From contig BFEA01000001.1 of NCBI GenBank assembly GCA_003427395.1, positions 10,423,030 through 10,487,029 of the forward strand: a stretch of 64,000 nt of DNA. Direction: 5' to 3'. The notes beneath the pieces were generated by a model, which saw only the letters and a program-made list of their open reading frames with translations, ran no database searches and was not told the origin of the DNA. Shown here piece after piece: positions 18,742 through 58,126 of the stretch. The position numbers and the translations under genes were made by a program. This DNA is from Chara braunii. Lineage: Eukaryota; Plantae; Charophyceae. Positions within the stretch are counted from its first letter, which is position 1; each line of letters starts with the position of its first letter.

Positions 18742-18801
<60 letters not shown>

Positions 18802-18830
18802 NGCATCATCATCATCATCATCATCACCAC

Positions 18831-18862
<32 letters not shown>

Positions 18863-18960
18863 CCATCATAATCATCATCATCATCGTCATCATCATCATC
18901 ATCATCATCAGCAACATCAGCATCAGCATCAGCAGCAGCAGCATCAGCATCAGCATTAGC
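18694..18960. repeat. (ATC)n/(AGC)n trinucleotide microsatellite
   Basis: Long ATC run; it produces spurious poly-M/poly-I ORFs. Confidence 0.95.
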
Positions 18961-38900: not shown

Positions 38901-41900
38901 AAACGGGATACCACGTGTGTACCTGCCCCCTTTCACGCGAAACGAAGAGCGACGGCTCGCTGGGAAGTTCAACGATACTTTTTAGATTGAATTTACCATA
39001 GTTGTGAGTCCCCGCACACGCCTTTATCTCCCTTAAAACCTGCGCAGCGATACATTCGAACCAACACGGGGGATTTCCAGTTATGTCAGTGTCCCCGCAC
39101 TCAATTTTCCAAAAATCTTTGGCACACCCCATCTTTGCTGCCTTTCCCCATTGTCGGTGCGAATACTCTTACAAGGGTATCCACCCTGGCTTTTGCAAGT
39201 GACATAAAATAAGTTTGGTTTAAAGTCTAAATATTTCGCGCGAGGCGCGACTGCGTCTGTGACTTACGTTGGCTGAAGGTTGACTAGAATAGAGAGTGTC
39301 TGGGCGCACGGGCTTGAGGCGCCCATTATTTTATTTATTGATGACTGAAGAACCGGCGTGATCGCCGACCAGATTTTTATTTATTTATGATTTGAATTAT
39401 GATTAAAAATATTTTTGCCTTTTGATTGGTGCGCTTGCGCGTGACTTGTGCGACGTGCGGAAAACGGCGTCGACAACAATGTGATTTTGAAGACATTTCG
39501 GTAGATCTACGCGTCGCGCAGTATTCTCTTATTTAGGTGTCCGTCAGCCTTGGGCCTAACACTATTGGTTACAGCGTCTGACTTTCATCTGAGAGATTCA
39601 GGGATCGAGATCGAGCAGCGACGACGCGGGATATTAGAGTAGCGCGAAGGGGCCGAGGGGTTGAGGGCCCGACGGGGCTATTCCCCTTGGTTTTGCCGTT
39701 AGCGGAGTCGCAGCGGCGCCAACGGTTCCTTTTACAGTCATCGCTGACCATTAAAATTTTAAATGTGTTATTATTTATCGTCATTCTTAATTATTTTATG
39801 TTTTAGTGTTCTCTGAATCAAGACGTGGCGCCGGGTTTGAGGGCCGTCACGGCGGCCGAAGACCTTGAGCGTGCACTTCCCTTAGTTGACCAATGGGGCT
39901 TTGTTGGGGGACCGTAGCGATGTCGCGGCAAGTTGAAGACCATGGTGGACCCATCACTACTTCGGTCCTCAAAGTTCTCATTTGAATATTTGCTACTATC
40001 ATTAAGATCTGCATCAGGACCCCCCCCTCCGACTGGAGCCATGCCTCAGGCCTGCAGTAGGCCCGGAAACTTGATTTTGTGTGTGTGGGCGGCCGCTGGT
40101 GGGCAGTGGTGGCCAAAGGCAGTGGCGCAGTCCGCCTGACCGGAGCAGGCCAGAGATAGACCAAGGGGAGGCTGTAGTGGGATGGCAGCGAAGCCAGCTG
40201 GCCACACTGCTCGTCGGGCAGAGTATAGAGGCGAAAGACTCATCGACCGTCTGATAATCGGCCATTTTCGGGCTATCGCTTACGGAAAAGGTGACCAAAC
40301 TGTGTTGGGCATTGCGGGGCCGCCGTGGTCGGATGCTGCATCGGTGGCAGCGGGGCAGAGCAAGGCAGCAGAGCGATGGGGCTAAGGCAAGGAACGTAGC
40401 GCAAGCAGAGGGAAACGAACCCGGGCTGGAAAATGCGCAAGGTGCATGCGAGAGCCACAGGCTATGGCAGAAGGAGAAGGGAGTGGAAAACATGAAACCC
40501 GCCCGATCCTTGATGAAAACGGGTGGGGAAAGAGTCGAGGCTAAGTTTTCTAGGCAGGGCGAATTAGATTATGCAGTTAGTTTATGGGTTAGAGGGTTGT
40601 GTAGAGTGGTTAGTGAGAAAAGCACCGTGTGAAGGTATGGCAAAGATAGAGGGAAAGTGAAGAAGAAGGAGGTGGATGAATACATATCTCGCCCATTTCC
40701 GGACGAAATCGGCTGAGGGAGGACTCAAACCGGGGGTTTTGGGGCGTGGCGGCCCCGATTCTGAAGTCATAATTAGTAAAAAGTTAGCAGAAGAAGATTT
40801 AGTAGAAAAAAGTGCTGCGTGAAAGTGTCGGGAGAGGTAGATATGACAGAGAGTGGGGAGTTTAGCCCATCCGATCCTTGACAGAATCGGACGAGGGGAG
40901 CCGCGTTTTGGGTGATCTGGAGTAAGATGGATGCGATGAAGATCTTAGTTCTGTTAATACGTTAGTAGGAAGGTGGATAAGAAGGGGCTGCATGGACGGG
41001 GGGGGGATAGCAGAAAGTCCAGGTATCTAATTGTGTTCAGGCGGTAGGTTCATTCAATTTTGCTCACTGTATCGATGGACGTAGCCGCTGCTTATCCCTC
41101 TACGCATACGATTCGAAGGCGGTATATCATTTTACATTCTAGCGGGAGATCCATTTATGACTTGAAGATAGTGGGGCAGTTGATGCCACACGCATTGGTC
41201 GGAGTCCCGGTACGACTCGTACGGGTCTCGATCCCGGTGAAGTTTTATGTAGGCTACCATCCTCGCTTTTGTTAGTGCTCTTGGTCTTCGCTCTGTTGCC
41301 GCATGATAACAACGGTGATCCCCATAGCAGTCGAGCTGACAAAGGAATAACGAGTAGGAGAGTGAAAGGATAAACGAGAAGAGAATGGGGAGATGGGCAA
41401 AAGGAGAGTCAGGCAGAGGCAGGGGAAAGGTTGAAACTAAAGACTCACCTGCTCACTGATACACTGCCCGAACTGAGGAGATTGCAGGCCTAGCTGCTGG
41501 CCAGTGGGCCGCCAAATGCATTAGCCGAAGTGACGAGGAGGGTCAACCACGGGGTGAAAAAACCTTGCCTTGCAAACACGCGTTGCCCAGTGAGCCACTG
41601 ACAGTGGAGTAAGGTCCGCCGTGAAGATTTGCAGATTGACTGGTGTGCTGCCGTTTATACCAGGCAGAGTAGTGTGAGTCCGACCACGGGCTGAATACTT
41701 GTTAGAGCTTGGTAAAGGCTACACAATCAGCACATGCGCACACTCCACCTGTTGAGTGACCAGCTAAACTGCGGTGACTGTTGTCGTTATGGCATGAGAG
41801 GGGACCGAGCTTCGTGGTGCTGACCCGAGTCTGAAGCCATAGCTAGTCGGACTGCGCTGCTGTTACACTGTGGTGCCGTAGAAAGAAGACTGTCTTGAGC

Positions 41901-42564
41901 TGTAACCTGTGCATTTCGGGTCACGAAGTTATGAAATGGTTGAGTCCTTGAAGGAGGCAGAGTCGTCGTTGCGAAGTGGGAGAGTCGTCAGGGAGTCAAC
42001 GGTTGAATGATTTGACTTCAGTCGACCAGGCTGGTAAGCACTTCCGCCATCATCGCGGGGTCCTCAAGCGTGTCAAGGTATCAAGGACTTCTCCCGCGAG
42101 TCTAAGAGCACCCTCCTTGGATCTGAGAGACTGAATCATTCTTCCTCTGCCTTTCTTACTCTAAGTCTAGTATATTGGTTACGAGAGGAAGGCGGCAGGC
42201 GGGATTGCAACCTGTAGGACCGCATCAAGACTTTGTGGGGAGTCCACCCACCGATTGCGGGAACTCTGCCGGAACCTAGGCGAGGTTCTAGAGGCAGGGA
42301 ACCATCAGGTAAATCATCTCTGTCTGTATGACCCACCATGCCGATGTCTGCCTATCTCCCTGTTGTTTGACTGATGTATGTACGTGATTGCCCCTATGAT
42401 TTTACTTTCTTCCAGTACTTAATCAGACTAAATGGAAGGAGTGTATGAAAGTGAAGCATAAGTTTCATCTTTATTTCTGTCTGAAAACAGATTAAGGTAT
42501 GAAATGAGGGAAGATGGGAGGAATGCAGACTGCATGCGTTTGACCGAGTCAACCAAGGACTGGG

Positions 42565-43168
42565 CATTGTTTTTAAGCTGAATGGCTCAGGGCTATGTTT
42601 ATTTGGCTGTTTCTGAAGGGTCAGGCATTGTTTCTAAGCTCAATGACATGGTTGTTGTGTTTTTTTCTGAGGGTTTGCCTGGCTGAAGGGTTTAATCACT
42701 TGTTTCATTCTGAGGGAGGATTTTTTGTCTAAGGCTAAGCATTGTTTCTAAGCTGAATGGTTTAGCCTGAAACCACGCATATAAGTATAAACTGAGTGTA
42801 AAAGAAAATACTTTACTTATATTTCCATGTGAACTTGCAGTTGGGCATTGTTTCCAAGCCGAATGGTCCACACTAAGCCATATCACTAAGTAGAGAAGGA
42901 AAACTCCAGAGTATAATTGGAAGTAGTCTGGGCAAGCTGAACATTGTTTCCAAGCCGAATGGTTCAGTCCCTGCCCATATTTGCATTTTCTTTTGAGAAT
43001 AAAGTCAGAAAGTTATTAATATTTGGATATTAAACAGTTCAGGGCGGCTAGGCATTGTTTCCAAGCCGAATGGTCTAGTCAAATGCCCAAAGGAGAGAGA
43101 AGTGGTAGTGTAACCTGTTCGTGTATATCTTAAAGGCTCACTAGACATTGTTTCTAAGTTGAATGGTC
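42565..43168 (+). repeat. Seven interspaced 22-bp motifs CATTGTTTCYAAGCYGAATGGT
   Basis: Copies start at 42565, 42626, 42740, 42846, 42942, 43053 and 43146. The spacers are dissimilar. Confidence 0.9.
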
Positions 43169-43469
43169 TAGCATTGTGCCATATGTAAGTTGGGTATAAG
43201 GGTTGAATCATCAGAGGGTTTCATGAACTATCTTATATAAAGTGACTTCGGGCTGGTGAGAGTACTTATCTTTGTGGTTTGGCCTTGCATGTGACTGAGT
43301 GAGATTACTACTTGGTCCGAGTTTCAGTTTGATAGGTAGCTGTTTTAGACGCTCGCCACGTGCTAGAGCCACAAAAGTTAGTTTCAATTCCTGCATTTTC
43401 TAGGTTAAGTTTATTTTTACTTAGGTCGATTTCTGAATTTTCTGGGATCATTTATTATACTTGGTCTTG

Positions 43470-43792
43470 TATAAATTTTGGTAAGGCACTTTCTCTACGG
43501 GAAGTGCTGCCGAAATTTCTACAAAACCAACGAGTTAGTCAGATTTTATCTTTTTCAGGGTCCAATTTTTAAGACTTTTTGGCTTAGTAAAAATTTGAAA
43601 AACCTCCTTTTCTAAAGGGAGTGCTGCCCAAATTTTTACTAGTTCAGGGAGTTCGACAAAATTTGGCTTTCCAAAATTATAGTTGATTTTTTTTTTCATA
43701 TTTGAGTTATTATAAATTTTGAGAAGGTATTTTTCCTACGGAAAGCGCTGCCGAAATTTTCTTAATTTATAGGAGTTAGGTTATATTTTGAC
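43470..43792 (+). repeat. Three diverged ~120-bp tandem units with core GTGCTGCCGAAATTT
   Basis: Cores near 43504, 43621 and 43746; the same units occur in the 3' LTR at ~56270-56590. Confidence 0.75.
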
Positions 43793-44439
43793 AGGTGGCA
43801 ATCCTAAAAATCCACTCTGTATAGAGGAGATTCTGTCAGGGTCTACCTTCTTTTGGCGCGTCGCCTATCCGATTTCCGCATCGGAGAGTTATAGGAAGAC
43901 TACTAAGGAACTAGGAGTGTGGTCGCGTTGTATGTTTTGTGTCGTTTCGTGTATATGTACGTGTGCGTGTTTTTTATGTTTTGTAGAGTGGTGTGCTCGT
44001 GGAGTGTGGGATGCGTCCTAGTCGCCTGACGACGAGTCGCGCTTGGGACCTCGACCCCCTAAGATGTCGGATCGCGTGCGGGTCCGATAGAGGCGTATTA
44101 CTGCGCGTACCCCCTATGCTACAACGAACGAGAAACACCCTCGACTGGTCCACCTCTGCGATTGCAGCTGATTAACTTTCGTACTGTGGACTGGTAGCTC
44201 GGTGGGGATACGCCCACCGAAGGGAGGTGACAACTCCCGTAAGGTGGAGGTAAGCCGTACCTCACGTAGGCCCTATCCTATCGTAGGGGCTCGCGAGAGG
44301 TATGGCGGCGCACTCGGTCAGAGCGGCTTGTGGAAACTCCATATGTATTTGCGACGAGGATTAAAACCAACTCCTGCGTGACGTGGCCGGGATGGTCCCG
44401 CGCTGCCTTGTGTGGTGCCGGACCGATGCGTTCGACAGG

Positions 44440-44458
44440 TGGCGCCGTTGCCGGGGAT
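44440..44458 (+). promoter_or_regulatory. Primer-binding site, tRNA-Asp (Athila-type)
   Basis: TGGCGCCGTTGCCGGGGAT, 2 nt after the LTR end. Confidence 0.93.
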
Positions 44459-45552
44459 AACGGTTGTTTGCCGTTGTCCCTGGTGGAACGATATCCGGGT
44501 ATGGGAATGTGATAAATAGTCAAAGAAAGAAGTTTTTTTTTGAGTTTAATTGTTTGATGGTATAAAACAGAGTGAAGGTTGACTGTGCGAGTTGGTTTTG
44601 TTTGATACAGTAAGGGTGGCACGAGAGCGATAAGCGTTTTGACTATGAGCTTACGTACTCTGACTGATAAGATGGTAGTTGGAGATGGTACGTCTTCTGG
44701 CCACGATAGTTGACAAATTTGGACGTTGCTTTGCATGGTTGATATGGTCAGGGTAAGATGAGGGAACGTCGATATGAGTAAGAACGTCCATTGAGGAAGT
44801 TGGCCCTATAAGGTACCTATTATGGTTGAAAAAGTTATCTGAGTGGTGATGAGAGCGACTTTGTACTTTTGTATTAAAGTGAGATCGAGGATGAGTAAGG
44901 GAGCCTATTATGTTAGAGGTCGTCAAAGGACTTCGAGGAGAGTTAAGCTAATGACGTTCAAAGTCTTTATAAGTATGGATATGGGATCCTTGGGTCTAGG
45001 TTCTAAGCGATTGTTCAATTTATATAGTCATAGGAGGCTGAGGGCTGCCTCCATGATGTGTTTGAACTAGGTGTATAAGGTTGTAGGTAGACGCAGTACA
45101 CGCCATGTTGAGACCTCAATAGAAGAGACTACGTGACGTAGTAGGTCTGCATAGTACCCTCTCTGCAAAGGAAGACTATTTTGTTCACCCTTGATAGGAC
45201 TATGAGTTGAAGTTGATGTTAGACATTCGCTTGAACATTTTCGGACTTGGACCATCCACGTGAATCTATGAGGTTAGAGCTAAGGACTTGAGACTATTCT
45301 CTTCTAAGGGCATCCCTCTTGAGTTATATATTGAACTCATCCATATATGTCAGATGTTGTCTGAATAAGCTTGTCTAATATCTCATCATGTAAGGCTAAG
45401 TGCTTAGTGATTATATTCTTTTAATGATTATCCTTGTCAGAAATATTTACATAGGCTATGTATCTGGAGTATGTATTTGAACTTATCAAGTCTGCAAGGA
45501 TTTATATGAGCGTCTCAAGTCCAATTATCAACCTATGGCTGTCTATTAAGTT

Positions 45553-45789
45553 CTACGTTGCATAGAGTACACGTACGGGGGCTTCCCGTACAAAACGTAC
45601 AGGTTATTTTTATACGGGATATGTACGGGAACCTGTACGGGAACCTGTACGTCTTGTACGCCCCCGTACNNNNNNNNNNNNNNNNNNNNNNNNNNNNNNN
45701 NNNNNNNNNNNNNNNNNNNNNNNNNNNNNNNNNNNNNNNNNNNNNNNNNNNNNNNNNNNNNNNNNNNNNNNNNNNNNNNNNNNNNNNNN

Positions 45790-45837
<48 letters not shown>

Positions 45838-46055
45838 TCATAAAAAAAATCCGAAAAAAAAACTATGTGATGCAACAACGCAAACCAAGCAACATTTGGC
45901 TGAGCATCATCTTCAGATTCTTATTAGAATTTGAGAAAAAAAATAAAACCAATACCGGATTAAAAAAAAAAAAAAAAAACTCGTACGGGGCCCCTAGCGT
46001 ACGAGTAGAGTACGAGTCCGTACTCGTACGAGGGTGCGTACAAGTGGCAACGTAG
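45553..46055. mobile_element. hAT-type MITE (contains a gap)
   Basis: 9-bp TIR CTACGTTGC/GCAACGTAG, perfect 8-bp TSD ATTAAGTT (45545-45552 and 46056-46063), many CGTAC/GTACG subterminal motifs. Confidence 0.92.
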
Positions 46056-47127
46056 ATTAAGTTTGTGTTTGAATTGCTCCTCAAAGAGGGGTAGAGATAT
46101 TATGCAAAATCCACGTCTGATGCGGATTCAGAGGTGAATGACGTGACCGTTTTCTTGAGATAAGTACCCCTCAGGAAGTGACCAATGTATAAGGTCTACC
46201 CCAAGGAAAGTTGCAATCCTATGTTATTGTTCTCCTGAGAGATCGCTTTGAAGAAGATATAATTTTGTCTTGTAAGTAGTAGTAAGACCCACACCGGAAC
46301 TCTGTTCCTGGTCCATAGTGGGGTGTTGTTTTTGTATCCTCTTTGATAAAATGACGGTACTACTACTGAAAGGGAGAAAGGTATTTGAGCCTTGTCAGAC
46401 CATGGCCTATGAGGAAAGCAACTACTACATGCCACAAAAAGGTAGGGGTTGAATCCCCAACTATTTTTGCGTCAAGTAGGTTCACCAGCACAGGACGAGA
46501 TAGCGCATCCCGAAGCGTGTATGATGAGGTTGGTTACTTTGTAGGCAAGGATCTGCAAGGAGTCAGTGATGGAATCGGATGGAGAAGCAGTGAGGCTTGA
46601 TCTTTGAGTGAGACTCAGGGATTTGAGATGGTATCCTTTCTGAAAAGGATTACACTGCCCCTCGCCACAATATACTTCTGTCAAAGCTAGGGGGTACAAT
46701 GTGGTACTCTCGTTGGTATTATGTCTGAGAGTGCTAATTGTTAATGGTCTTATCTCTGATCATAACGTGTCTATCATATGAAATGTATGTGGATATAAGC
46801 TTATTATGAAGTACTTGTATGTACTTTGAATTACTGACTAGCTCATACGTACTGCGTTTGGTTGTTATAAAGAATTATTGATGTTAGATTATCAAGGTGA
46901 TATATCATTGTCCATAAGTAATTATTATTATGAGTTTGTGATAGCTGTGAATAAACTGTTACCATGATATATTACCATTATTTTTTTCTCTAAGTTGGGT
47001 GGTCATAAACACTAGAAAGGATGCCTTTTAGTGAAAGATGATTTGAGGTTAAGGCCTTAGAGATAGAGACTCTTGGACGCGATTGCCAGCATAGCAACGA
47101 AAGGCGTATGCTGGACGTTTTTTTGTG

Positions 47128-47820
47128 ATGGGCAGAACCCAGACCAGAGCGAAGGCAACTCAGGATACCTTATGCTAAGGAAGATCCCAGGGTGACCTTG
47201 CCAGTCAAAAGGAAGATAGATTTGAGATGTCTTTGCCAAGACGAGTCAAGGAAAGAAAGTACATCTCTTCCTGGTGGACCGTGCTGATAGATAAGGGGGG
47301 TTTTGTCTGGATCGAGTCTGGCTTTGATGATGACCGAGACTGCGCGCTCGTGAGGGTGACCCTATATGCTCCACCATCATTTTGGGTCTTACAAGGGATT
47401 GAGTTGGCGCTTGGGTATGAAAGCCTGTTGAAGAGGCCTTTGAGGGTAGCCGAGGGAGTTGCAGCGAAGTGGGCGAGTGATAGGGTCCAGGAAGGAGAAG
47501 AGCAGGTGGAGACTTGTATAGAGATCAAACGTGCCGAAGAGTTCACACTTCCTTCATCCCCATTGAGAGTTATCTTGTCGGAGTTCCTGATAGAAAAGTG
47601 TTTTGGGGGACAAGCAAGGGTAGAGGCCGCAGCAGAGGCCGCTTTGAGGATGCGAGTGTGGGGGTACTCGCAATACACGTGCGAGTTAATATATGGCCTG
47701 TACCTGGACCTAAGGTTTATGCCCCATATGGTCAAGATTGTTGACACTTATGCTGGCTCCCATGATCCGGATGACAGGGCTGCAGATTGGGACGAGATTC
47801 ATGCGGTAGTGGGTCAATAG
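47128..47820 (+). pseudogene. Unknown-family paralogue P5, upstream of gag in element B
   Basis: EMSLPRRVKERKYISSW resembles P2 EMSIPSRNKWR*TICGW. VETCIEIKRAEEFTLPSSPLRVILSEFLIEKCFGG resembles P3 VTTEVKTAMAGTFTLPSKNVRMRLPPFLLQRMGG. One early in-frame stop. Confidence 0.72.
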
Positions 47821-48151
47821 AGAGTACTTTGCCAAGTGCGTCCCTCATAGACTTGTCTATGGCCGCCCCTACTAGGTGATACGAGTACGAAGGCCAGTGG
47901 TACTTGTAGCCTCGATTACTGTCTGCCTAAGACTGGCTTTGAAAGCTCTGCGTATGTAGGATGTATATTGTTTATAGTACCCTCAAAGTATGAATAGGGG
48001 TGACTAGAGTTCATAGTCGTATTGTGTGAGCGAGAAGAGTTAGTGTGGCTGAAGTATTAGCAGCCTTTACTAGCCTTATTGTTTTGAACCTTCTTGTGTC
48101 ACAACCTGATGATCAATTGTTTGTCATGCGTGTCAGGCCAGTATCAACATC

Positions 48152-49168
48152 ATGGTTGAAGAAGGTGGTTTCGCCATGATCCTGCTCTGGAGGAGCTTGT
48201 GCCTCAGCAAAGTGCTGCTGTGCGAGTCGGTACAGGACTCGATGCCTCCAGATCTTCGTGCTTTGCTGTTTCAGGGAAGGAATTTGTCTGCCTTCCTACG
48301 CGGCTATCATGGCTTCAGTCTCATGAAGATGTGGGACGAAAAAGCGATGTCGAGCATGTTGCCGTTGTTTGTCTGCAAAGAGTTGAGTGAGGAAATGTAT
48401 ACTCTTATGGTAAAGTCGCGGACATGGGGTGAGCTGAAAACCTCTCTGAAGTTAAGGTTTCCCGAGGGTGCAGTAGAGAGCCAACTTGGTGAAAGCCATG
48501 TGCAACTAGCTGAGAATGCGTCAACGCGAGGAGAGCTAAGTGGTATACAGAGGCAAGTTGGGGTATTGGAAGAAAGGTTGACGCGACTAGAAGAGGCCAG
48601 ATATAGCAAGAGGAAGGTTTTTGAAGGTACGTCAAGTAAGCCGACTGGGCAGGATGGAGCAGAGGCAAGGGATGCTGATCGAGAGTCACTCCTCCGCAAA
48701 AGAACCCTGAGAAGGCGGGCTTGTGCTCAAGGGGGAGATGAAGGCGAGAGGTTGATTGAGGCAAAATTGGAACAGAAAACTAGCATAGCCCTGCCTATTG
48801 TTTCGTATGATCCGAAGAGGGGGGCTGTTGACGTGGAAGCGTCGTCAACTGCAGATAGGAGGGAGCGAAGGAGTAAGAGAGGGCGAGAACACTGGGCAAA
48901 GATGGTGTGTGATTGTTGTGAAAAGGCTGGTCATACCCCTCGAAGATGCAAAGAAAAGGGGATGACAGAGAAAAAAGAGGAGCCTGAACCTCCCAAGTTA
49001 ACGAAAGCACAGCGGAAAGCGAGAAACCCGGCCCAGGGAAGTCAAGGTATTGGAAAGGGGCAGTGTTCGCGACAAGTAGCGGCCGCCCCACAAGAAGTGG
49101 GGCCCACAAGAAGTGGGGGACAAAGCAACACAAAAGGGGCCTCTGTCGACCGAGCGGGAACTAAATAG
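48152..49168 (+). pseudogene. gag-like ORF of element B
   Basis: FQGRNLSAFLRGY...W...TWGELKTSLKLRF capsid-like start, a coiled-coil segment and knuckle CDCCEKAGHTPRRC. Confidence 0.75.
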
Positions 49169-52086
49169 GCAGTGGGCGTCGTGTAATCAAGTGGGTCTGC
49201 GGCCGATGTATAATCCATGTGTGTCATGGGCACAAGGCAGCTGTTTGGGCCCACAAATGAGCATGATGACGCTTGGGCCTCCCGCAATGCAGATCCGACC
49301 AACTTGACCTATGGGACTGTTGCGGCCACCAACCCAATAAGTGTCACAAGGCGGCGTGGCCGGTGGAGGAAGCCAAACACGGCAAACTGGAAGAGGCCGC
49401 GGGGATGGAGGACGAGGCAATGAAGGGCGTGGTGGCGGCAGAGGAGGCATTAGTGGGTGTGATGGACGTCGGCGGAACCATAAGTGGAATACAGGGAAGA
49501 GAAAGGTATGATAAACGGTAATTCAGATGGTAGCCGAGTAGGTAAAGTAGCGAAAGGAACGGGAAAGAGATGGTGGCGTGAAAGTTGATAAAAAGATGGG
49601 GTTAAAGAGAGTGTAGTAGTGCGAAGAGAGGAGTAACCCTAACCCTTAAGTTTGGAAAATATTCAGTCAGATGATGGTCCTGGATCGCCTTGGTTTGTTT
49701 TACCTTCAGTAGATTCAGTTGTATATACAAGGGCGTAGAGCTAGGATAGCAGGCTAACCAATTGTGTGATTTTAATTTCGTATTTTAGTCAGCAGGGAGC
49801 CTGACAATATACCAAGAGAGTTTCGTAATAATGGTCTGGTAAGGTAACCCGAGTTGTAGGCGGGAGGGACCCCAATAGAACAACTGTATATGTGGGGTAT
49901 GTTAGGCCTGCCTCAAATCGCGTTATTGGAATGTCTCAAGTGGATAGAGCAAGGAGTGGTTTTAAGGACATTATTACGAAATGAAGAGTCTATTCCACTA
50001 GACCTATCGTTGAGAGAAGAAGATATGAGACCTATTTTGTGTTTAGGTCAGGATGGTTGAACATGTGTGAGAAGTATGAAGGACTTGGGAAGAGACCTCA
50101 GCATATGTGAGGCAGACTCTCTAACCTAGAAGTGTAGTATATAAGGCTTGTGTATGAATGATTTTTTATGTTGCTTGGCTACTTAGATATGTCTTGAATT
50201 ACTTGGATCCCTCCGATTTGAGGGGTGTGATTACGTCCTGATCAAGACTGTTTCAATTTTAGCTCTGGTCAGGGAGACCGCGATTTTTGTGTGATATCGA
50301 TGCCAGTGTGAGTTGAGATTGTTCAACTCTGTGTGTATATATATAATTCAAAATCATATTGGTTCGCTTTTGAGTTGGGATATTATGTTCTGAAGTGTAT
50401 ATTTGAGTTGAGATTTTATCTGAGACTATCTCCTTATATATGACGATCACATTCACTCTCACATGTGTGGTTTTATCCTGATGTATGATGGTTTTGTGAG
50501 AGAGATGTATGAGGAACGTCTTATGTGTTTGTATTTTGAGAATGTGAATGAATTTGAACTGTCTACTCTTCGGTATACTCGTACGATCTGCCCATGGACG
50601 GGTGATAGGGCCGGGTATAAGAAGAGGGAGTGCAGTCTGTCTTTGTGAAAGAGTGTGAGAATCCTAAAGGATCTAATGAGTTTTTTAGGCTCGAACGCTT
50701 TACCATGCCTAATGTTTATTGTTGAGTTGTGATGAGGACCCATAAGTTGGTCCCTTTGTTTGAGTTGTTTTATGGTAAAGACGTCTTTGAGTGGGAACGC
50801 AGTCTTTTGTTTATTTGGAAGACTTATCTTTAGAGAGGGAAAATGTGTTAAAGAAAGGTCGCGTGAAAGTTCATCCTAAAAAGAGAAGGGATGACTGGGA
50901 GACCTATTGAGTGATACCTCCTTCATATGAAAGGTGGTTAATAAATTTAATGGCATGAAAAACTGATTTTGAATGATAAAGACTGACGAGAAGAACCAAG
51001 TTTTTTGTTTGGTCATTTGGTAAAATTTTGGAGGTCGCAAAAATGATTTATTTGGGAGACGTCGCTGAGAGGTGACCTTCTTACTCTGATCAAGTAGGGA
51101 GGTCACGGCCTCGTGAATCTGGCGGTGATTTTGTTTTGTGAATGTGGAGAGGTTGTCGTGTTTCTCTGTGTTGTCCCACAGAGGACTGGTAAATACCTTT
51201 TATGTGTGACAGACCTTTGCGTAGTCCCACAGTAGGCCTGTATTGTTGCGACACACCGTCCAACCACTTGTGCTAATTTTAGGACATTTATGAGAATACC
51301 AAGCTAACGGTAAAGTTTAGCATCACTAGGGCACAACCCCTAGTGTCGGCTGCTGATCGGCATAACCTGAACAGTAGGCCTACGTCTTGCCAAGGGAGTA
51401 AAGACTTAAAAGGGTGTGGCCACCTAAGAGGGTCTTACTCCTGCGGAACGGCGTGGGATAGGAATCGAGTTGAGTCTTTTTGAGTCCTGATTGAATGCTT
51501 ATCAGGAGAAAGTCTATCTCAGCGCAACCTGCGAAGGCACTACCGCTAAAATAACGACGCGGCCGTAGATCTGGCACGATCACCCAGGCTACCGTGGACC
51601 AAGATGGAGACCTAGCCTTCCTGTACTAGACTGCAGGAGGCGTTTGAGATAAGATTTATGTATATATATATATATGTTTCATTGCGAGAATTGTTGGAGG
51701 GAGGCAAAAGTGTCTTCAAAGTTCTCAGTTAGGGCTCGCGTCCCTAATTTTGGCCCTGCTTGCAGGGTAGAAATTAAGAACGCCTAATGAGGAGCTGACG
51801 TTTGTCTAGGACAAAGGGGAAATGACAACTGAGAGGGCCGCTGAGGCTTATGCTGTAGTACGTATGTCTAGTACACCGACATCCTAGTGTCAGGACAATA
51901 GAGACCCATGTTAGAATCCTGACGGCATATAGTTATATGGGCTTGGATTGTTGGAGGCCTCGAACCTGAGTCTGTTGGCTAATCGGATTGATTCCTTTCT
52001 CGTCAGCGTTTTGGATTATGGTTGAACTGATAGTTTTTTTGATCCTGCGAAGCGACGGGGACGTCGCTTAATATGGTCCGGTAAGC

Positions 52087-55000
52087 TGTCGGTGCAAATA
52101 CCCTTACAAGGGTATCCGCCCTGGCTTTTGCAAGTGACAAAAAATAAGTTTGGTTTCAAATCTAAGTATTTCGCACGAGGCGTTGCTGCGTCTGTGACTT
52201 ACGTTGGCTGAAGGTTGACTAGAATAGAGAGTGTGTAGGCGCGCAGGCTTGAGGCGCACGTGATTTGATTTATTGATGACTGAAGAACCGGCGTGATCGC
52301 CGACCATATTTTTATTTATTTATGATTTGAATTATGATTAAAAATAGTTTTGCCTTTTGATTGGTGCGCTTGCCCATGACTTGTGCGACATGCGGAGGAC
52401 GACGTCGACAACAATGTGATTTTGAAGACGTTTCGGTAAATCTGCGCGTCGCGCAATATTCGCTTATTTAGGTGTCCGTCAGTGCTAGAACCAGCCTTGG
52501 GCCTAGCACTATTGGTTACAGCGTCTGACTTTCATCTGAGAGATTCAGGGATCGAGATCGAGCATCGACGGCGCGGGATATCAGAGTAGCGCGAAGGGGC
52601 CGAGGGGTTGAGGGCCCGACGGGGCTATCCCCCTTGGTTTTGCCGTCAGCGGAGTCGCAGCGGTGCCACAGTTCCTTTTTCAGTCATCGCTGGCAATTAA
52701 AATTTTCTAAATGTGTTATTATTTATTGTCATTGTTAATTATTTTTATGTTTTGGTGTTCTCTGAATCAAGACGTGGCGCTGGGTTTGAGGACCGTCACG
52801 GCGGCCGAGGACCTTGAGCGCGCGCTTCCCTTAGTTGACCAACCGGGCTTTGTTGGGGGACCGTAGCAATGCCGCGGCAAGCTGCGGACCATGGGGGACC
52901 CATCGCTACTTCGGTCCTCAAAATTATCATTTGAATATTTGCTACTATCATTAAGATCTGCATTGGGACCCCCCCTCCGACTGGATCCATGCCTCGGGCC
53001 TACAGTAGCCCCGCAAACTTGATTGTCTGTGTGTGGGCGACCGCTGGTGGCCAAAGGCAGTGGCGCAGTCCGCCTAACCGGAGCAGGCCAGAGGTAGACC
53101 AAGGGGAGGCTGTAGCGGGCTGGCAGCAAAGCCAGCTGACCACACTGCTCGTCGGGCGGAGTATAGAGGTGAAAGACTCATCGACCGTATGGTAATCGAC
53201 CATTTTCAGGCTATCGCCTACGGAAAAGCTGACCAAACTGTGTTGGGCGTGGCGGGGCCGCCGTGGTCGGATGCTGCATCGGTGGCAGCGGGGCAGAGCA
53301 AGGCAGCGGAGCGACGGGAAGAGTGGAGTCGAAGTTTTCTAGGCAGGGCGAATTAGATTATGCAGTTAGTTTGTGGGTTAGAGTGCTGTGCAGGGAGGTT
53401 AGTGAGAAAAGCATCGCGCGAAGGTATAGCGGAGATAGAGGGAAAGTGGAGAAGAAGGAGGTGGATGAATGCATATCTCGCCCATTTCCGGACGAAATTG
53501 GGCGAGGGAGGACTCAAACCGGGGGTTTTGGGGCATGGCGACCCCGATCCTGAAGTCATAATTAGTAAAAAGTTAGCAGAAGAAGATTTAGTAGAACAAA
53601 GTGCTGCGTGAAAGTGTCGGGAGAGGCGGATATGGCAGAGAGTGGGGAGCTTTGCCCATCCGATTTTTGACATAATCGGACGAGGGGAGCCGCGTTTTTG
53701 ATGATTTGGAGTAAGATGGATGAGATGAAGAAATTAGTTCTGTTAACAAGTTAGTAGGAAGGTGGATATGGGAAAAGAAGGGGCTGCATGGAGGGAGGGA
53801 GGATAGCAGAAAGTCCATGTATCTAACTTTTTTCAGGCGGTAGGTTCATTCAATTTTGCTCACTGTATCGATGGACGTAGCCGCCGCTTATCCCTCTGCA
53901 CATACGATTTGAAGGCGATATATACTTCTGCATTCTAGCGAGAGATTCATTTATCACTTGAAGATAGTGGGGCAGTTGATGCCACACGCATTGGTCGGAG
54001 TCGCGGTACGGCTCATACGGGTCTCGATCCCGGTGCAGTTTTCTGTAGGCTACCATCATCGCTTCTGTTAGTGCTCTTGGCCTTCGCTCTGTCGGCGCAT
54101 GATAACAACGGTGATCCCCATAGCAGTGGAGCTGACAAAGGAATAATGGGTCGTTAGAAAAGTGGAAGGATGAACGAGAAGAGAATGAGGAGATAGGCAA
54201 AAGGAAAGTCGAGCAGAGGCAGGGAAAATGTTGAGACTAAAGACTCACCTGCTCATTGATACGCTGCCCGAACTGAGGAGATTGCAGGCCTAGCTGCTGG
54301 CCAGTGGGCCACCCAATGCATTAGCCGAAGTGACGAGGAGTGCCCGCCACGGGGTGAAAAAACCTTACCTTGCAAACACACGTTGCCCAGTGAGCCACTG
54401 ACAGTGGAGTAAGGTCCGCCGTGAAGATTTGCAGATTGACTGGTGTGCTGCCCTTTATAGCAAGCAGAGTAGTGTGAGTCCGACCACGGGCTGAATACTT
54501 GTTAGAGCTTGGTAAAGGCTACACAATCAGCACATGCGCACACTCCACCTGTTGAGTGACCAGCTAAACTGCGGTGACTGTTGTCATTATGGCATGAGAG
54601 GGGACCGAGCTTCGTGGTGCTGACCCGAGTCTGAAGCTATAGCTAGTCGGACTGCGCTGCTGTTACACTGTGGTGCTGTAGAAAGAAGACTGTCTTGAGC
54701 TGTAGCCTGTGCATTTCGGGTCACGAAGTTGTGGCATGGTTGAGTCTTTGAAGGAGGCAGAGTCGTCGTTTGTGAAGTGGGAGAGTCGCCAGGGAGTCAA
54801 TGGTTGAATGATTTGACTTCAGTCGACCAGGCTGGTAAGCACTTCGGCCATCATTGTGGGGCCTTCAGGCGTGTCAAGGTATCAAGGCCCTCTCCCGCGA
54901 GTTGAGAGCACCCTCCTTGGATCTGAAAGACTGAATCATTCTTCCTCTGCCTAACTTACTCTAAGTCTAGTATATTGGTTACGAGAGGAAGACGACAGGC

Positions 55001-58000
55001 GGGATTGCAACCCGTAGGACCTCATCAAGACTTTGTGGGGAGTCCACCCACCGATTGCAGGAGCTATGCCGGAACCTATGCGAGGTTCTGGAGGCAGGAA
55101 ACCATCAGGTAAACCATCTTTGTCTGTATGACCCACCGTGTCCATGTTTGCCTATCTCCGTGTAGTTTGACTAATGTATGCATGTGATTGCCCCTATGAT
55201 TTTACTTTCTTCCAAGATTTAATCAGACTAATGGAAGGAGTGTGTGAGAGTGAAGCATAAGTTTCATCATTATTTCTGTCTGAAAACAAATTAAGGTATG
55301 AACTGGGGAAAGATTGGAGGAAGGCAGACTGCATGCGTTTAACTGGGTCAACCAAGGGCTGGGCATTGTTTCTAAGCTGAATGGTCCAGGGCTATGTTTA
55401 TTTGGCTGTTTTATGAAGGGCCATATATTGTTTCTAAGTTGAATGGCGTGGTTGTTGTGTTTATTTCTGAGGGTTTGCCTGACTGAAGGGTTTAATTACT
55501 TGTTTCATTCTGAGGGAGAATTTTTGGTCTAAGGCTAAGCATTGTTTCTAAGCTGAATGGTTTAGCCTGAAACTAGGCATATAAGTATAAACTGAGTATA
55601 AAAGAAAGTACTTCACTTATATTTGCATGTGAACTGGCAGTTGGGCATTGTTTCCAAGCCGAATGGTCCAGCGCTAAGCCATATCACTAAGAAGAAAAGG
55701 AAAACTGCAGAGTATAATTGGAAGTAGTCTAGGCAAGCTGAACACTGTTTCCAAGCCGAATGGTTTAGTCCCCTGCCCATATTTGCATTTTGTTTTTCGA
55801 ACAAAGTCAAAAAGTTATTAAGTTTTGGATATTAAACAGTTTAAGGCGGGTAGGCATTGTTTCAAAGCCGAATGGTCTAGTCAAATGCCCAAAGAAGATA
55901 GAAGTAGTATTGCAACATGTTCATGTATATCTTAAAGGCACGTTAGACATTGTTTCTAAGCTAAATGGTCTAGTATTGTGCTATATATAAGTTGGATATA
56001 AGCGTTGAATCATTTGAGGGTTTCATGAACTATCTTATATAAAGTGACTTGGAGCTGGTGAGAGTACTTATCTTTGTGGTTTGGCGTTGCATGTGACTGA
56101 GTGAGATTACTACTTGGTCTGAGTTACGGTTTGATAGGTAGTTGCTTTAGACGCTCGCCACATGCTAGAGTCATAGGAGTTAGTTTCAATTTCTGCATTA
56201 TTTTGGCTAAGTTTATTTTTACTTAGGTCGAAATCTGCATTTTCTGGGATCATTTATTATACTTGGTTTTGTATAAATTTTGGTAAGCGACTTTCTCTAC
56301 GGGAAGTGCAACCGAAATTTCTACAAAACCAAGGAGTTAGTCAGATTTTGTCTTTTTCATGGTCCAGTTTTTCAGACTTTTTGGCTTAGTAAAAATTTGG
56401 AAAACCTTCTTCTCTAAAGGAAGTGTTGCCCAAATTTTTACTAGTTCAGGGAGTTAAACAAAATTTGACTTTCCAGAATTATAATTGATTTTTGTTTTCA
56501 TATTTGAGTTATTATAAATTCTGATAAGACATTTTTCCTACGGGAAGCGTTGCCGACATTTTCTTAATTTAGAGGAGTTAGGTTTTATTTTGACAGGTGA
56601 CAATCTTGGAAATCCACTCTATATAGAGCAGATTCTGCCAGGGTCTACCTTTCTTTTGGCACTTTCTTAGAGGTAGACTCGGTTTACGACTCAACTCCAA
56701 TCCACTTTTGTCACTCAAGCTAAAGGCTTTAGTGTTGTGATTTGAATTGTTTTGTTGTGTTTTCGCCCGGACTTTATTTGAATGGTCATTTAAAGAAAAA
56801 TATTGAGTATTTTATTTTGAGAATTGCACAAAGAGTGAGGCTTGTATGGCTAAAAGCAAGGGGTGTGAGTGTAGAGAATGGTTGAAGTTGACCCCGTGTA
56901 GTGCATGAACTTTTTGGTTGAATCTTTGATGTGATTGCAGGTATGTTTGGTGATTAAGACTTTGGATTTGACTGTCTGCGCTCACATACATATATATATG
57001 GCTAAGAGGAGTCCCACTGTGACTGTGAGAAGTGATCGTCCTATATTAATAACCCTCTATATATATGTATTCAGTGTTTCGTGTGGCCTACTGTGACCGC
57101 GCGTAAGGGTTAAACAGATTATGTTTTCAAAGAAAATGAGACTTCCCCTTTTTAACATTTGTTTTTTAGAATTTTTATGGTTGGACGTTATAATCCGTGG
57201 CAGTCATCAAAGTCAAACCCCTTTATTTCTCTCGAGGCCGTAGATGATGGAGCTGGTCTCTAGGGCAATAAGAGTTGATTGTCACCACAGGTATGAACCT
57301 GTGTACCACCCACGCTCCGCAGGGTGCAGAAGAGGGTGTGGTTTTCAACCTCACTTGGCGGTTGTCCACCGTCGAGAGATCACCCCCAAAGGCGCGTATC
57401 AGCCGACACTTGAGTGTTGAATGCGACCCTCGAGATTAACAAGGACCGCATAAGCATGGGTACTACATAGTACGCCATCATTGCGACTGCTTGCGTATGT
57501 TTGCATTGAGAGTCGATATGAGTTAGCCCGGCGTCCGCGCAATTTTATACTAAGTCTCACACGCGTCGCGTATCTGATTTCCGCATCGGAGAGTTATGGG
57601 AAGACTACTAAGGGACTAGAAGTGTGGTCGCATTGTTTGTTTTGTGTCGTTTCGTGTATATGTACGTGTGCGTGTTTTTTATGTTCTTTGGAGTGTGGGA
57701 TGCGTCATAGTCGACCAGCGACGAGTCGCACTTAGGACCTCAGCCGCCCAAGACGTCGGTTCGCGTGCGGGTCCGATAGAGGCGTATTACCACGCGTACA
57801 CCCTATGCTACAGCGAACGAGAAACGCCCTCGGCTGGTCCACCTCTGCGATTGCAACTGATTAGCTTTCGTATTGTGGTCGGTAGCTCGGCGGGGATACG
57901 CCCATCGAAGGGAGATGACAACTCCCCTAAGGTTGAGGTAAGTCGTGCCTCGCATAGGCTCTATCCTGTCGTAGGGGTTCGCGAGAGGTATGGCTGACGC

Positions 58001-58126
58001 ACTCGGCCAGAGCGGCTTGCGGAAGATCCATATGCATTTGCGACGAGGATTAAAACCAACTCCTGTGTGACGCGGCCGTGGAGGTCCCTCACTGCCTTGT
58101 GCGGTGCCGGACGGATGGGCTTGACA
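52087..58126 (+). repeat. 3' LTR of element B (6040 bp)
   Basis: TGTCGGTGC...TTGACA, colinear with the 5' LTR, with the same seven-motif array at 55364-55970. Confidence 0.93.

What the first reader, a model, noticed from the sequence alone, without database searches (positions are those of the whole stretch)
42565..43168. Seven 22-bp motifs with unique spacers in the LTR: a possible cis partner of the accessory proteins
Seen: CATTGTTTCYAAGCYGAATGGT recurs at periods of 61, 114, 106, 96, 111 and 93 bp with dissimilar spacers, in both LTRs (second array 55364-55970). The motif has CATT...AATG inverted ends and is much better conserved than the spacers. Established: Arabidopsis VANDAL elements use self-encoded VANC proteins binding repeated short motifs for sequence-specific anti-silencing. 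Speculation: these are binding sites for a host factor or for the element-encoded P-family or LTR proteins, or are RNA processing signals.
Basis: partly seen in the sequence, partly recalled or inferred. Interest (0 to 1): 0.72.

Follow-up and report, generated by a model that had tools for sequence, protein, structure and literature searches.

The report
Seven-hairpin array in retrotransposon LTR
Seven copies of one small stem-loop, with a fixed 22-letter top and arms that differ between copies yet still pair, sit just upstream of a TATA-like box in both long terminal repeats of a gag-only retrotransposon; they likely act as repeated protein docking sites on the element's RNA, though plain DNA enhancer boxes are not excluded.

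Summary
The 22-nt motif occurs 7 times in each LTR (14 matches, 0 expected), at the stated periods. The spacers do not align to each other.

New here: each motif is the top of a hairpin. The 4-5 letters on either side differ between copies but stay complementary. Cognate arms pair at 33 of 35 positions, the maximum of 5,040 permutations (P=0.0008 and 0.0016). G.U pairs outnumber A.C pairs 14 to 2, and the + strand folds better in 14 of 14 copies. That points to sense-strand RNA.

The array ends 66 nt upstream of a plant-type TATATAAAG box kept in both LTRs, so it probably lies in U3.

In genomic contigs of the same species the hairpins carry about 5 times the summed depth of the spacers by median.

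The element has 5.3 and 6.0 kb LTRs, a PBS and a zinc-knuckle Gag-like ORF, but no pol.

Best reading (0.45): a multi-site RNA docking platform. Main rival (0.30): DNA cis-elements like the Sirevirus repeated motifs.

No binding, transcript start or poly(A) site was shown. No accessory protein was found.

The parts
39152..44437 (+). 5' LTR (5,286 bp), TG...CA ends
   Evidence: Self-BLAST (90.6-91.2% identity to the second copy over 1,244+3,348 bp, 87% over the last 575 bp). Ends located.
52087..58126 (+). 3' LTR (6,040 bp). Carries about 900 bp extra at 56660-57562 relative to the 5' LTR.
   Evidence: No matching target-site duplication (CCCAT against CCTGG).
42565..43167 (+). Array 1: seven 22-nt motifs, 3,413-4,016 nt into the LTR
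   Evidence: 0-3 mismatches each.
55364..55969 (+). Array 2: the same seven motifs in the 3' LTR, spacing within 1 nt of array 1
42560..42590 (+). Hairpin H1 (arms CTGGG / CCAG-type; motif 42565-42586)
   Evidence: The LTR2 copy at 55359-55389 pairs better.
42621..42651 (+). Hairpin H2 (decayed in LTR1; the LTR2 copy at 55421-55451 keeps a CCAT/GTGG-type stem)
   Evidence: One search shows that RNA reads (13 of 13) and about a quarter of the contig depth carry G at 42646, restoring the motif.
42735..42765 (+). Hairpin H3 (arms GGCTAAG / TTAGCC, 9-bp stem, -13.2 kcal/mol)
42841..42871 (+). Hairpin H4 (arms TTGGG / CCA..; right arm damaged in LTR1, intact in LTR2 at 55641-55671)
42937..42967 (+). 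Hairpin H5 (arms CTGAA / TCAG)
43048..43078 (+). Hairpin H6 (arms GCTAGG / CTAGT)
43141..43171 (+). Hairpin H7 (arms CTAGA / CTAG)
43234..43242 (+). TATA-like box TATATAAAG, 66 nt after the last motif. The same box lies at 56036 in LTR2, also 66 nt after the array.
   Evidence: It fits the plant TATA consensus quoted in PMC2829016 section 11. Use as a promoter is inferred.
43455..43785 (+). Three units of about 120 bp, each folding into a long hairpin, downstream of the TATA-like box (also at 56254-56561)
   Evidence: 3 copies, 61-76% alike; inverted arms of 19-23 nt.: + strand -33, -29.5, -18.3 kcal/mol, z -7.3, -4.1, -1.7; - strand weaker in all three.
44440..44457 (+). Primer-binding-site-like TGG... 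stretch, 2 nt after the 5' LTR
   Evidence: Read. The match to a tRNA 3' end is inferred; no tRNA gene lies in the window.
48113..49165 (+). Gag-like ORF (351 aa, stop to stop) with a CX2CX4HX4C zinc knuckle at 48908-48949
   Evidence: knuckle seen directly. (Atlas neighbours at 0.89-0.90 carry zf-CCHC, Retrotrans_gag, Ty3_capsid; a lead only). Pfam itself finds nothing.
47179..47817 (+). 213-aa ORF upstream of the Gag-like ORF, in another frame, no family

Best explanation
The seven motifs are the fixed tops of seven stem-loops whose flanking arms differ from copy to copy but stay complementary. They are predicted to fold in the element's sense-strand RNA and would act as a multi-site docking platform for an RNA-binding protein, most likely the element's own zinc-knuckle Gag or a host export or stability factor.

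Shown:
- There are 7+7 motif copies with unlike spacers.
- The arms change in a compensatory way.
- The + strand folds better than the - strand.
- The array sits 66 nt upstream of a conserved TATA-like box in 5.3 and 6.0 kb LTRs.
- The element is + oriented: a PBS follows the first LTR and the Gag-like ORF is on the + strand.
- The module has higher summed depth in genomic contigs than the spacers.
- RNA-seq reads from other family copies cover the array.

Inferred:
- The TATA-like box is the promoter, so the array is in U3 and is carried in the 3' untranslated end of full-length RNA.
- The 19-nt apical part (internal loop AUUGU/UG, a 3-bp UUC/GAA helix, hexaloop YAAGCY) is what a protein reads.
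- Seven copies give avidity.
- For an element that has gag but no pol, such a handle would mark its RNA for packaging into particles made with a helper element's enzymes.
For: 1. Pairing of the arms. On the 14-row alignment A3, 83.3% of 168 cells in the proposed structure pair, against 20.8-47.6% when the 3' partner is slid by 1-3 columns. In 0 of 500 shuffles do as many cells change on both sides.

2. Pair types. 12:38 is AU 8, GC 5, GU 1, with none broken. 13:37 is GC 7, AU 4, GU 1, UG 1, with 1 broken. 11:39 is UA 12, CG 2. RNAalifold on its own predicts the same 6-bp stem plus the UUC/GAA helix.

3. Exact permutation of the right arms among the 7 paralogues. Cognate pairing is 33 of 35 and is the maximum of 5,040 permutations in each LTR: P=0.0008 for LTR1 and 0.0016 for LTR2. 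With Watson-Crick pairs only, P=0.0004 and 0.0016.

4. Strand. In the 6-bp stem there are 65 WC, 14 G.U, 2 A.C and 3 other of 84 cells. The + strand is the more stable in 14 of 14 hairpins, mean -8.2 against -5.6 kcal/mol. The + strand is the element's sense strand.

5. Fold in isolation and in context. 9 of 14 isolated 38-mers give the same canonical fold as their minimum-energy structure. In the 631-nt context, 4 of 7 keep it and a fifth keeps the outer stem.

6. Across the family. laid 2,400 contigs of run X2 in 14-nt bins. The 7 bins that are mostly motif have a median summed depth of 20,867 (range 17,179-64,133). The 15 bins without hairpin letters have a median of 4,014 (range 1,116-27,357). 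Joints between motifs show that unit number varies among copies.

7. The spacers are not a decayed tandem repeat.

8. RNA-seq run X6 covers the array at mean depth 10-23 per direction. The reads differ from this copy at the listed positions, so they come from other family members.

9. The same LTR carries three further + strand-biased long hairpins after the TATA-like box.
Against: - The effective sample is only seven paralogues; the two LTRs are not independent. No second genome or family alignment was available (searches found no relatives).
- Thermodynamic support is modest. Individual hairpins are -3.8 to -13.2 kcal/mol. Shuffling the flanks gives a mean z of -1.1, and only 5 of 14 reach z of -1.9 or lower. 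Cognate arm duplexes are only 1-2 kcal/mol better than non-cognate ones. The whole 631-nt array is no more stable than shuffles (z=0.11).
- Half of the G.U excess comes from one column pair (14:36), which may be a single inherited state.
- The position just upstream of a TATA box is what a DNA enhancer array looks like, as in the Sirevirus repeated motifs (PMC2829016).
- Sites variable at 10% or more among contigs are not significantly rarer in motif and stem (7 of 124) than in spacer (31 of 277), P=0.10. Three further variable rows were not shown by the tool.
- Part of the depth excess over hairpins may come from contigs of H1, H2 and H7 being laid on H3-H6.
- Transcript start, poly(A) site and strand could not be read. 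No start or end places were reported, RNA depth roughly tracks DNA depth, and both read directions occur.
- There is no evidence that any protein binds.
Confidence: 0.45

Rival explanations
1. The motifs are duplex-DNA cis-regulatory boxes, that is transcription-factor sites or an enhancer, in U3 of the LTR. They would work like the Sirevirus repeated motifs or other repeated U3 boxes of plant retrotransposons. The hairpin potential would be a by-product of dyad symmetry.
For: There are seven copies over 604 bp, ending 66 nt upstream of a plant-type TATATAAAG box conserved in both LTRs. Sirevirus LTRs carry 3-14 copies of a short palindromic motif, mostly in the first half of the LTR within a stretch of 300-500 bp, followed shortly by the TATA box. 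Their authors read these as transcriptional cis-elements, untested (PMC2829016 sections 9 and 11). The core begins with CATTGTT, which I recall as an HMG-box-type site; that is not tested here.
Against: A duplex site gives no reason for the arms to change in matched pairs or for a sense-strand G.U bias. The conserved core is not itself palindromic and has no CGG-CCG signature. The array is CpG-poor (observed/expected 0.27 and 0.39, against 0.89-1.10 in the rest of the LTR), whereas the Sirevirus motifs mark CpG islands. The spacings (61-114 bp) show no helical phasing.
Confidence: 0.3
2. The array is a structurally constrained but functionally idle remnant. An old tandem repeat of about 100 bp has diverged in its spacers, and its palindromic part is kept alike by mutation or repair bias, such as template switching within inverted repeats or gene conversion among units, not by selection for a function.
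For: Unit number varies among family copies through joints between motifs. In some contigs a sequence like the end of spacer 2 recurs before H3-like hairpins (table 5c), so unit duplication is ongoing. Spacers 1 and 2 share a small TCTGARGG motif. H4-H6 share the C/C motif variant and H1-H3 and H7 the T/T variant, which looks like descent by duplication.
Against: The spacers give no alignment at all, while the 22-nt core matches the consensus exactly in 4 of 7 copies of LTR1 and 3 of 7 of LTR2. Four different arm combinations are all complementary. A 6-9 bp stem around a 19-nt top is a poor substrate for hairpin-templated repair. The hairpins are far more abundant than the spacers across the family.
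Confidence: 0.12
3. The hairpins are RNA processing signals: small-RNA precursors, cleavage sites, ribozymes, or 3'-end formation enhancers.
For: The hairpins are sense-strand biased. They lie in a region covered by RNA reads in both directions. The same LTR has three long pre-miRNA-sized hairpins nearby.
Against: No Rfam family, ribozymes included, matches even at E up to 10. The only hits are 3 chance snoRNA matches at E 1.7-9.9, far below their gathering scores, and there are none in the whole window at gathering score. Stems of 6-9 bp are too short for Dicer- or Drosha-type processing. No places where many molecules begin or end were reported. No small-RNA library was available.
Confidence: 0.08
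4. One reading: the motifs are targets of an element-encoded anti-silencing accessory protein, as with VANC proteins on VANDAL transposons.
For: The only support is the formal likeness: a short motif repeated in non-coding DNA of a mobile element.
Against: The element is an LTR retrotransposon. None of 48 ORFs of 70 aa or more in 39100-52100 reaches a Pfam cut-off, and none besides the Gag-like ORF looks like a real protein. Arm covariation points to a folded strand, not a duplex site.
Confidence: 0.05

Closest known systems
Repeated palindromic motifs (RMs) of Sirevirus (Ty1/copia) LTRs in plants (Bousios et al. 2010, PMC2829016; sections 9 and 11 and found passages read; its additional files not seen)
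   Same: Several copies (3-14 per LTR) of one short motif, not in strict tandem, cluster over a few hundred bp in the LTR and are followed shortly by a conserved plant-type TATA box. The motif has dyad symmetry and is kept while the rest of the LTR diverges. Its function is untested.
   Different: There the motif is 10-20 bp and wholly palindromic, with a CGG-CCG signature and the same sequence in all copies. It marks CpG islands and belongs to Copia elements. Here the core is a 22-nt asymmetric sequence, the symmetric arms vary and covary, and the array is CpG-poor. The element has a Ty3-like Gag lead and no pol.
RNA transport and response elements of retroviruses and LTR retrotransposons: MusD MTE next to the 3' LTR, IAP RTE, HTLV-1 RxRE inside the 3' LTR (PMC4588558, main text part 1 read; PMC12786077 section 6 read); MPMV CTE (recalled)
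   Same: Structured sense-strand RNA at or in the 3' LTR region that recruits a protein to the unspliced RNA. The CTE also repeats one conserved loop motif on a helix (recalled).
   Different: Those are single complex folds of roughly 250-1,500 nt with long-range contacts, not arrays of seven separate small hairpins. There is no sequence or Rfam similarity. Binding partners are known there and unknown here.
Multi-copy same-loop hairpins that give avidity: the five iron-responsive elements in the transferrin-receptor 3' UTR, and dispersed packaging-signal hairpins of RNA viruses (both recalled, not read here)
   Same: The logic is the same: a conserved loop or bulge on stems of free sequence, several copies separated by unrelated spacers, read by one protein.
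   Different: The loop sequences, hosts and proteins are unrelated. This is an analogy only.
Hairpin arrays with one fixed loop and covarying stems noted by this scan in retrotransposons of other genomes (AI notes e1-7392714, e1-7335416, e1-7629152, e1-7273208, e1-7826669, e1-7499374, e1-7629520)
   Same: The anatomy is the same: many small hairpins, fixed top, covarying stems, in non-coding parts of often non-autonomous LTR elements.
   Different: The loops, hosts and positions differ. Those notes are unchecked and are not independent evidence for this case.
VANC-bound short repeats of Arabidopsis VANDAL21
   Same: A short motif is repeated in non-coding DNA of a mobile element.
   Different: That is a DNA transposon with duplex DNA sites and a dedicated encoded protein. 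None of these is found here.

Membership tests
LTR retrotransposon (the host element) | Two long direct repeats with TG...CA ends | tested here: met
   39152-44437 and 52087-58126, 87-91% identical.
LTR retrotransposon (the host element) | Primer binding site after the 5' LTR; gag (and pol) between the LTRs; target-site duplication | tested here: inconclusive
   A TGG... PBS-like stretch lies 2 nt after the LTR. A Gag-like ORF with a CCHC knuckle is present. No pol domain appears in 48 ORFs. The flanks CCCAT and CCTGG do not match. The element looks like a gag-only, non-autonomous or decayed copy.
Sirevirus-type LTR repeated motifs | Several copies of one short motif clustered in the LTR upstream of a conserved TATA box | tested here: met
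   Seven copies over 604 bp, with TATATAAAG 66 nt downstream in both LTRs.
Sirevirus-type LTR repeated motifs | Motif wholly palindromic with a CGG-CCG signature and marking a CpG island; element a Sirevirus (Copia) | tested here: not met
   The core is asymmetric and lacks CGG-CCG. CpG observed/expected is 0.27 and 0.39. No Copia or Sirevirus domains were found.
Ordinary (decayed) tandem repeat or minisatellite | Units alignable over their whole length | tested here: not met
   TRF finds none. The 15 spacer pairs all have z below 2.
Structured RNA element (generic) | Base pairs kept by compensatory change, more than controls give | tested here: met
   on seven paralogues only. Thermodynamic support is weak.
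Any described RNA family (Rfam 15, incl. ribozymes, snoRNAs, miRNAs, viral cis-elements) | Match to a covariance model | tested here: not met
   (E up to 10: only 3 chance hits far below gathering scores). (no hit in the window at gathering score).
CTE/RTE/MTE/RxRE-type export elements | Confers export of unspliced RNA through a defined protein (NXF1, RBM15, Rex ...) | not testable with these tools
   Only the position in the 3' LTR region is comparable, and that rests on the inferred U3 assignment.
VANC/VANDAL anti-silencing system | Mutator-like DNA transposon encoding a VANC protein that binds the repeats | tested here: not met
   The element is an LTR retrotransposon. No such ORF or family was found.
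miRNA-type precursor hairpins | Stem of about 20 bp or more | tested here: not met
   The stems are 6-9 bp. The three long hairpins at 43455-43785 would fit by size, but they are a separate feature.

The most novel reading that the evidence does not exclude
The array is the private RNA handle of a gag-only parasitic retrotransposon. Seven copies of one stem-loop in the U3-derived 3' end are read by the element's own zinc-knuckle Gag, so that its RNA, and not that of the helper that supplies pol, is packaged. With the other same-loop hairpin arrays this scan has noted in unrelated eukaryotes, it would define an undescribed general class of retrotransposon cis-element. It would also be the first such RNA signal in the green lineage.
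Probability: 0.2. Interest if true: 0.75.

Novelty: new variant of a known kind. Interest (0 to 1): 0.5.

Why it matters
Arrays of short repeated boxes upstream of the LTR promoter are known in plant retrotransposons. They have been read as DNA elements and never tested. Here the arms of the boxes covary, which is the signature of a folded RNA.

A 2025 review states that RNA export of plant LTR retrotransposons has not been studied directly, and that it is unclear whether they carry dedicated cis-motifs (PMC12786077 section 6).

The module is small (about 31 nt) and repeated. Its stems can be broken and restored at will. That makes the question 'DNA enhancer or RNA docking site?' directly testable. 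If the RNA reading holds, it could explain how a very abundant gag-only family gets its RNA copied by a helper's enzymes.

Tried and rejected
- Whole genome: none is held for this window, so no family-wide alignment or R-scape-type test was possible.
- Earlier notes near this place or with similar sequence: none.
- Public collections. The exact motif gave 0 loci in metagenome contigs. A degenerate 20-mer gave 9 metagenome loci and 1 viral locus, each with a single match in unrelated contexts and no arrays. These are chance hits.
- Rfam: nothing. tRNA scan: none.
- Sequencing runs. No RNA holder was listed by the index. Three raw-read RNA runs were laid instead. The tool reported no places where molecules begin or end and no poly(A) loose ends among those shown. 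RNA depth roughly tracked DNA depth. So TSS, poly(A) site and strand stayed open.
- Variable-site density among contigs did not separate motif from spacer significantly (P=0.10-0.15). I chose H3-H6, the best-kept hairpins, for that lay, which biases it.
- A partner sequence complementary to the motif elsewhere in the element (9 nt or more): none.
- The dinoflagellate spliced-leader relic as a clue to host and motif origin: 0 matches.
- The CATT/AATG pairing as the stem of the motif was considered. The covarying register instead pairs motif letter 1 with letter 21 and the flanks. Which apical fold forms (UUC/GAA, or CAUU/AAUG with a bulged G) cannot be told, because those letters never vary.
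- Relatedness of the Gag-like ORFs to other elements in the window: none.
- Complex prediction was not used. It does not take RNA, and no protein pair is claimed to bind.
- A CRISPR-like reading was rejected: the genome is eukaryotic, spacer lengths are irregular (39-92 nt) and there are no cas-like ORFs.
Full report
**What is there**

The motif CATTGTTTCYAAGCYGAATGGT, allowing up to 3 mismatches, occurs 14 times in the 64 kb. All matches are on the + strand, seven at 42565-43167 and seven at 55364-55969. None appeared in 100 shuffles. The start-to-start spacings are 61, 114, 106, 96, 111, 93 bp, and in the second array 62, 114, 106, 97, 112, 93 bp. A covariance model built from the 14 copies finds no other copy in the window.

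**Context**

- A self-comparison shows a long direct repeat, 39152-44437 against 52087-58126. Identity is 90.6% over 1,244 bp, 91.2% over 3,348 bp and 87.1% over 575 bp. The second copy carries about 900 bp extra at 56660-57562.
- Both copies start with TG and end with CA. The first is followed 2 nt later by a TGG... stretch of the kind that pairs with a tRNA 3' end. A matching target-site duplication is not present.
- Between the repeats lie a 213-aa ORF and a 351-aa ORF on the + strand. The second has a CX2CX4HX4C zinc knuckle. Its Atlas neighbours at scores 0.89-0.90 carry zf-CCHC, Retrotrans_gag and Ty3_capsid, which is a lead only.
- None of 48 ORFs of 70 aa or more between 39100 and 52100 reaches a Pfam cut-off, and no protease, reverse transcriptase or integrase is seen.
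- The arrays therefore sit in the 5.3 and 6.0 kb LTRs of an old insertion (about 9% LTR divergence) that is + oriented and gag-only, or else decayed.
- The only host gene in the window is a nucleobase-ascorbate-type permease. It is 38-41% identical to its best relatives, and every listed hit that carries an organism name is from a land plant. I infer a green-lineage host outside the named land plants and did not pursue its identity further.

**Is it a decayed tandem repeat?**

No. Tandem Repeats Finder reports nothing over the array even at score 30. All 15 pairwise local alignments of the six spacers score within 2 sd of shuffles. Only spacers 1 and 2 share a small TCTGARGG motif.

**The new point: each motif is the top of a hairpin**

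The 4-5 letters before each motif and the 4 letters after it differ between the seven units but are complementary. Examples are CTAAG/TTAG, CTGAA/TCAG, CTAGG/CTAG and CTGGG/CCAG.

- On the 14-row alignment, 83.3% of 168 cells in the structure pair. The structure is a 6-9 bp outer stem made of motif letter 1, letters 21-22 and the flanks, then an internal loop ATTGT/TG, a TTC/GAA helix and a hexaloop YAAGCY. When the partner is slid by 1-3 columns, only 20.8-47.6% pair. In 0 of 500 column shuffles do as many cells change on both sides.
- Pair 12:38 is AU 8, GC 5, GU 1. Pair 13:37 is GC 7, AU 4, GU/UG 2, with 1 broken. Pair 11:39 is UA 12, CG 2. RNAalifold predicts the same stem unaided.
- The two LTRs are not independent, so I permuted the right arms among the seven paralogues within each LTR. 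The cognate arrangement pairs 33 of 35 positions and is the maximum of all 5,040 permutations: P=0.0008 and 0.0016. With Watson-Crick pairs alone, P=0.0004 and 0.0016.

This compensatory pattern is expected of a folded single strand. It is not expected of a duplex protein site.

**Which strand**

In the 6-bp stem there are 14 G.U cells against 2 A.C cells. The + strand folds better in 14 of 14 hairpins, mean -8.2 against -5.6 kcal/mol. The + strand is the element's sense strand. This evidence is suggestive only, because half of the G.U cells come from one column pair.

**Limits of the structural case**

- The hairpins are weak (-3.8 to -13.2 kcal/mol).
- Shuffling the flanks gives a mean z of only -1.1.
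- Cognate arm duplexes are 1-2 kcal/mol better than non-cognate ones.
- The whole 631-nt array is no more stable than shuffles (z=0.11). Within that fold 4 of 7 hairpins keep the canonical form and a fifth keeps its outer stem.
- The apical fold cannot be checked by covariation, because those letters do not vary.
- No Rfam family matches.

**Position in the LTR**

The array ends 66 nt upstream of TATATAAAG in both LTRs. That box fits the plant TATA consensus quoted in PMC2829016. If it is the promoter, which is inferred, the array is in U3. It would then be both promoter-proximal DNA and part of the 3' untranslated end of full-length RNA.

About 200 nt downstream of the box lie three units of about 120 bp. 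Each folds into a long hairpin: -33, -29.5 and -18.3 kcal/mol on the + strand, z -7.3, -4.1 and -1.7, and weaker on the - strand. The sense RNA of this LTR is therefore rich in local structure.

The array is AT-rich and CpG-poor. CpG observed/expected is 0.27 and 0.39, against 0.89-1.10 for the rest of the LTR.

**The family at large**

Four DNA runs of one sample hold parts of the stretch. Three 2026 RNA-seq runs of the same species label were laid as raw reads.

- On 39000-49500, 43,198 contigs of run X2 were laid. Summed depth is very uneven: 17-319 over 40053-41807, about 15,000-17,000 over the array, and up to 370,000 at 43914-44264. Listed contigs that match this copy without any difference have depth 6-11. 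The LTR is thus a mosaic of widely shared and nearly private pieces.
- At 14-nt resolution over 42700-43100 (2,400 contigs), depth peaks on the hairpins: H3 61,000-64,000, H4 about 20,000, H5 about 18,000, H6 47,000-55,000. It drops to 1,100-4,900 in the spacers. The median of the 7 motif bins is 20,867, and the median of the 15 hairpin-free bins is 4,014.
- Contigs from H1, H2 and H7 laid onto H3-H6 can explain only part of this excess.
- Joints from one motif to another, both skipping and going back, show that unit number varies among copies.

Against this, sites variable in 10% or more of the depth are not significantly rarer in motif and arms (7 of 124) than in spacers (31 of 277), P=0.10. 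Three further rows were not shown by the tool, and I had picked the four best-kept hairpins. Between the two LTRs of this insertion, motif, arms and spacers have decayed alike at 6.5%, 14.1% and 9.9%, P=0.25. That is expected after insertion.

**Expression**

Run X6 covers the array at mean depth 10-23 per read direction. At the listed positions all of its reads carry letters that differ from this copy, so they come from other family members. Both directions occur, depth roughly follows DNA copy number, and no start or end places were reported. Expression neither places the transcript ends nor settles the strand. One joint, 42612 to 43050, is seen in 16 RNA reads and in no DNA contig. It remains unexplained.

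**Comparison with what is known**

- The nearest published thing is the repeated palindromic motif of Sirevirus LTRs. There, 3-14 copies per LTR of a 10-20 bp dyad-symmetric box are spread over 300-500 bp and followed shortly by a conserved TATA box. The authors read it as a transcriptional element and did not test it (PMC2829016, sections 9 and 11 read; additional files not seen). The layout is the same. The differences are that the core here is asymmetric, the symmetric arms vary and covary, there is no CGG-CCG signature and no CpG island, and the element is not a Sirevirus.
- On the RNA side, export elements such as the MusD MTE beside the 3' LTR and the HTLV-1 RxRE inside it occupy a comparable place but are single complex folds (PMC4588558). 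A 2025 review says RNA export of plant LTR retrotransposons has not been studied directly (PMC12786077 section 6).
- Three full-text searches listed no paper whose title or abstract start describes a same-loop hairpin array in an LTR. These searches cannot prove that none is in print.
- This scan's own unchecked notes list similar arrays in retrotransposons of other genomes. They agree with the reading made here before I saw them, but they are not independent evidence.

**Verdict**

The decayed-tandem-repeat explanation fails. The motifs are the tops of seven covarying stem-loops.

I commit to a multi-site RNA docking platform in the U3-derived end of the element's RNA, at 0.45. The element's zinc-knuckle Gag is the most economical partner. 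A duplex-DNA enhancer array of the Sirevirus kind stands at 0.30.

It is a new variant of a known kind, of moderate interest, and cleanly testable.

Noticed in passing
43455-43785 (and 56254-56561): Three decayed units of about 120 bp lie about 200 nt after the TATA-like box. Each folds into a long hairpin of pre-miRNA size: + strand -33, -29.5, -18.3 kcal/mol, z -7.3, -4.1, -1.7, and weaker on the - strand. They share a GCTGCC(C/G)AAATTT core.
   Followed up: partly
about 42146/42183-42275: A short segment inside the LTR has sharp loose ends on both sides in RNA and DNA reads. Its summed contig depth is very high (about 200,000 at 42263). In runs X5 and X7 its RNA cover is one-directional. 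It looks like a separate very high-copy short repeat nested in, or shared with, the LTR.
   Followed up: no
40053-41807: This 1.7-kb part of the LTR has summed contig depth of only 17-319, against thousands to hundreds of thousands elsewhere in the LTR. It looks like a lineage-private, possibly captured, piece. It has open frames on the - strand but no Pfam family.
   Followed up: partly
34793-35980; 56660-57562: A third, partial copy of the LTR's 3' end lies upstream of the element. It shares part of the roughly 900 bp that the 3' LTR has and the 5' LTR lacks, so the 5' LTR probably lost that piece.
   Followed up: partly
42565-43167 and 55364-55969: The array is AT-rich (GC 0.38-0.39) and CpG-poor (observed/expected 0.27 and 0.39), while the rest of the LTR is at 0.89-1.10. 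Three of the 6 CpGs of array 1 sit in the C/C variant of the motif.
   Followed up: no
42612 to 43050: A joint skipping 437 nt, from just before H2 to just before H6 with ends CT..CT, is seen in 16 RNA reads of run X6 (11 start places) but in no DNA contig of run X2. It could be an expressed shorter-array variant or an RT or library artefact.
   Followed up: no
3245-6100 (-): An uninterrupted 952-codon frame (the stored protein has 946 aa) encodes a nucleobase-ascorbate-type permease. It has an N-terminal extension of about 400 aa without a family. Its best relatives are 38-41% identical, and all named ones are land-plant NAT11/12.
   Followed up: partly
10734-12515; 16504-17130; 24898-27097 with 22949-23248/33205-33520; 18632-18956: Other repeats in the window: a LINE (endonuclease and RT); a Harbinger/PIF-type DDE transposase fragment; a second LTR element with protease and RT, flanked by a 300-bp direct repeat pair that may be its LTRs; and a short-period tandem repeat.
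   Followed up: no
L004, L005, L010 (metagenome and giant-virus contigs): The degenerate 20-mer hits the same coding-like context in three public contigs, one labelled GVMAG. This is a chance match unrelated to the array.
   Followed up: partly
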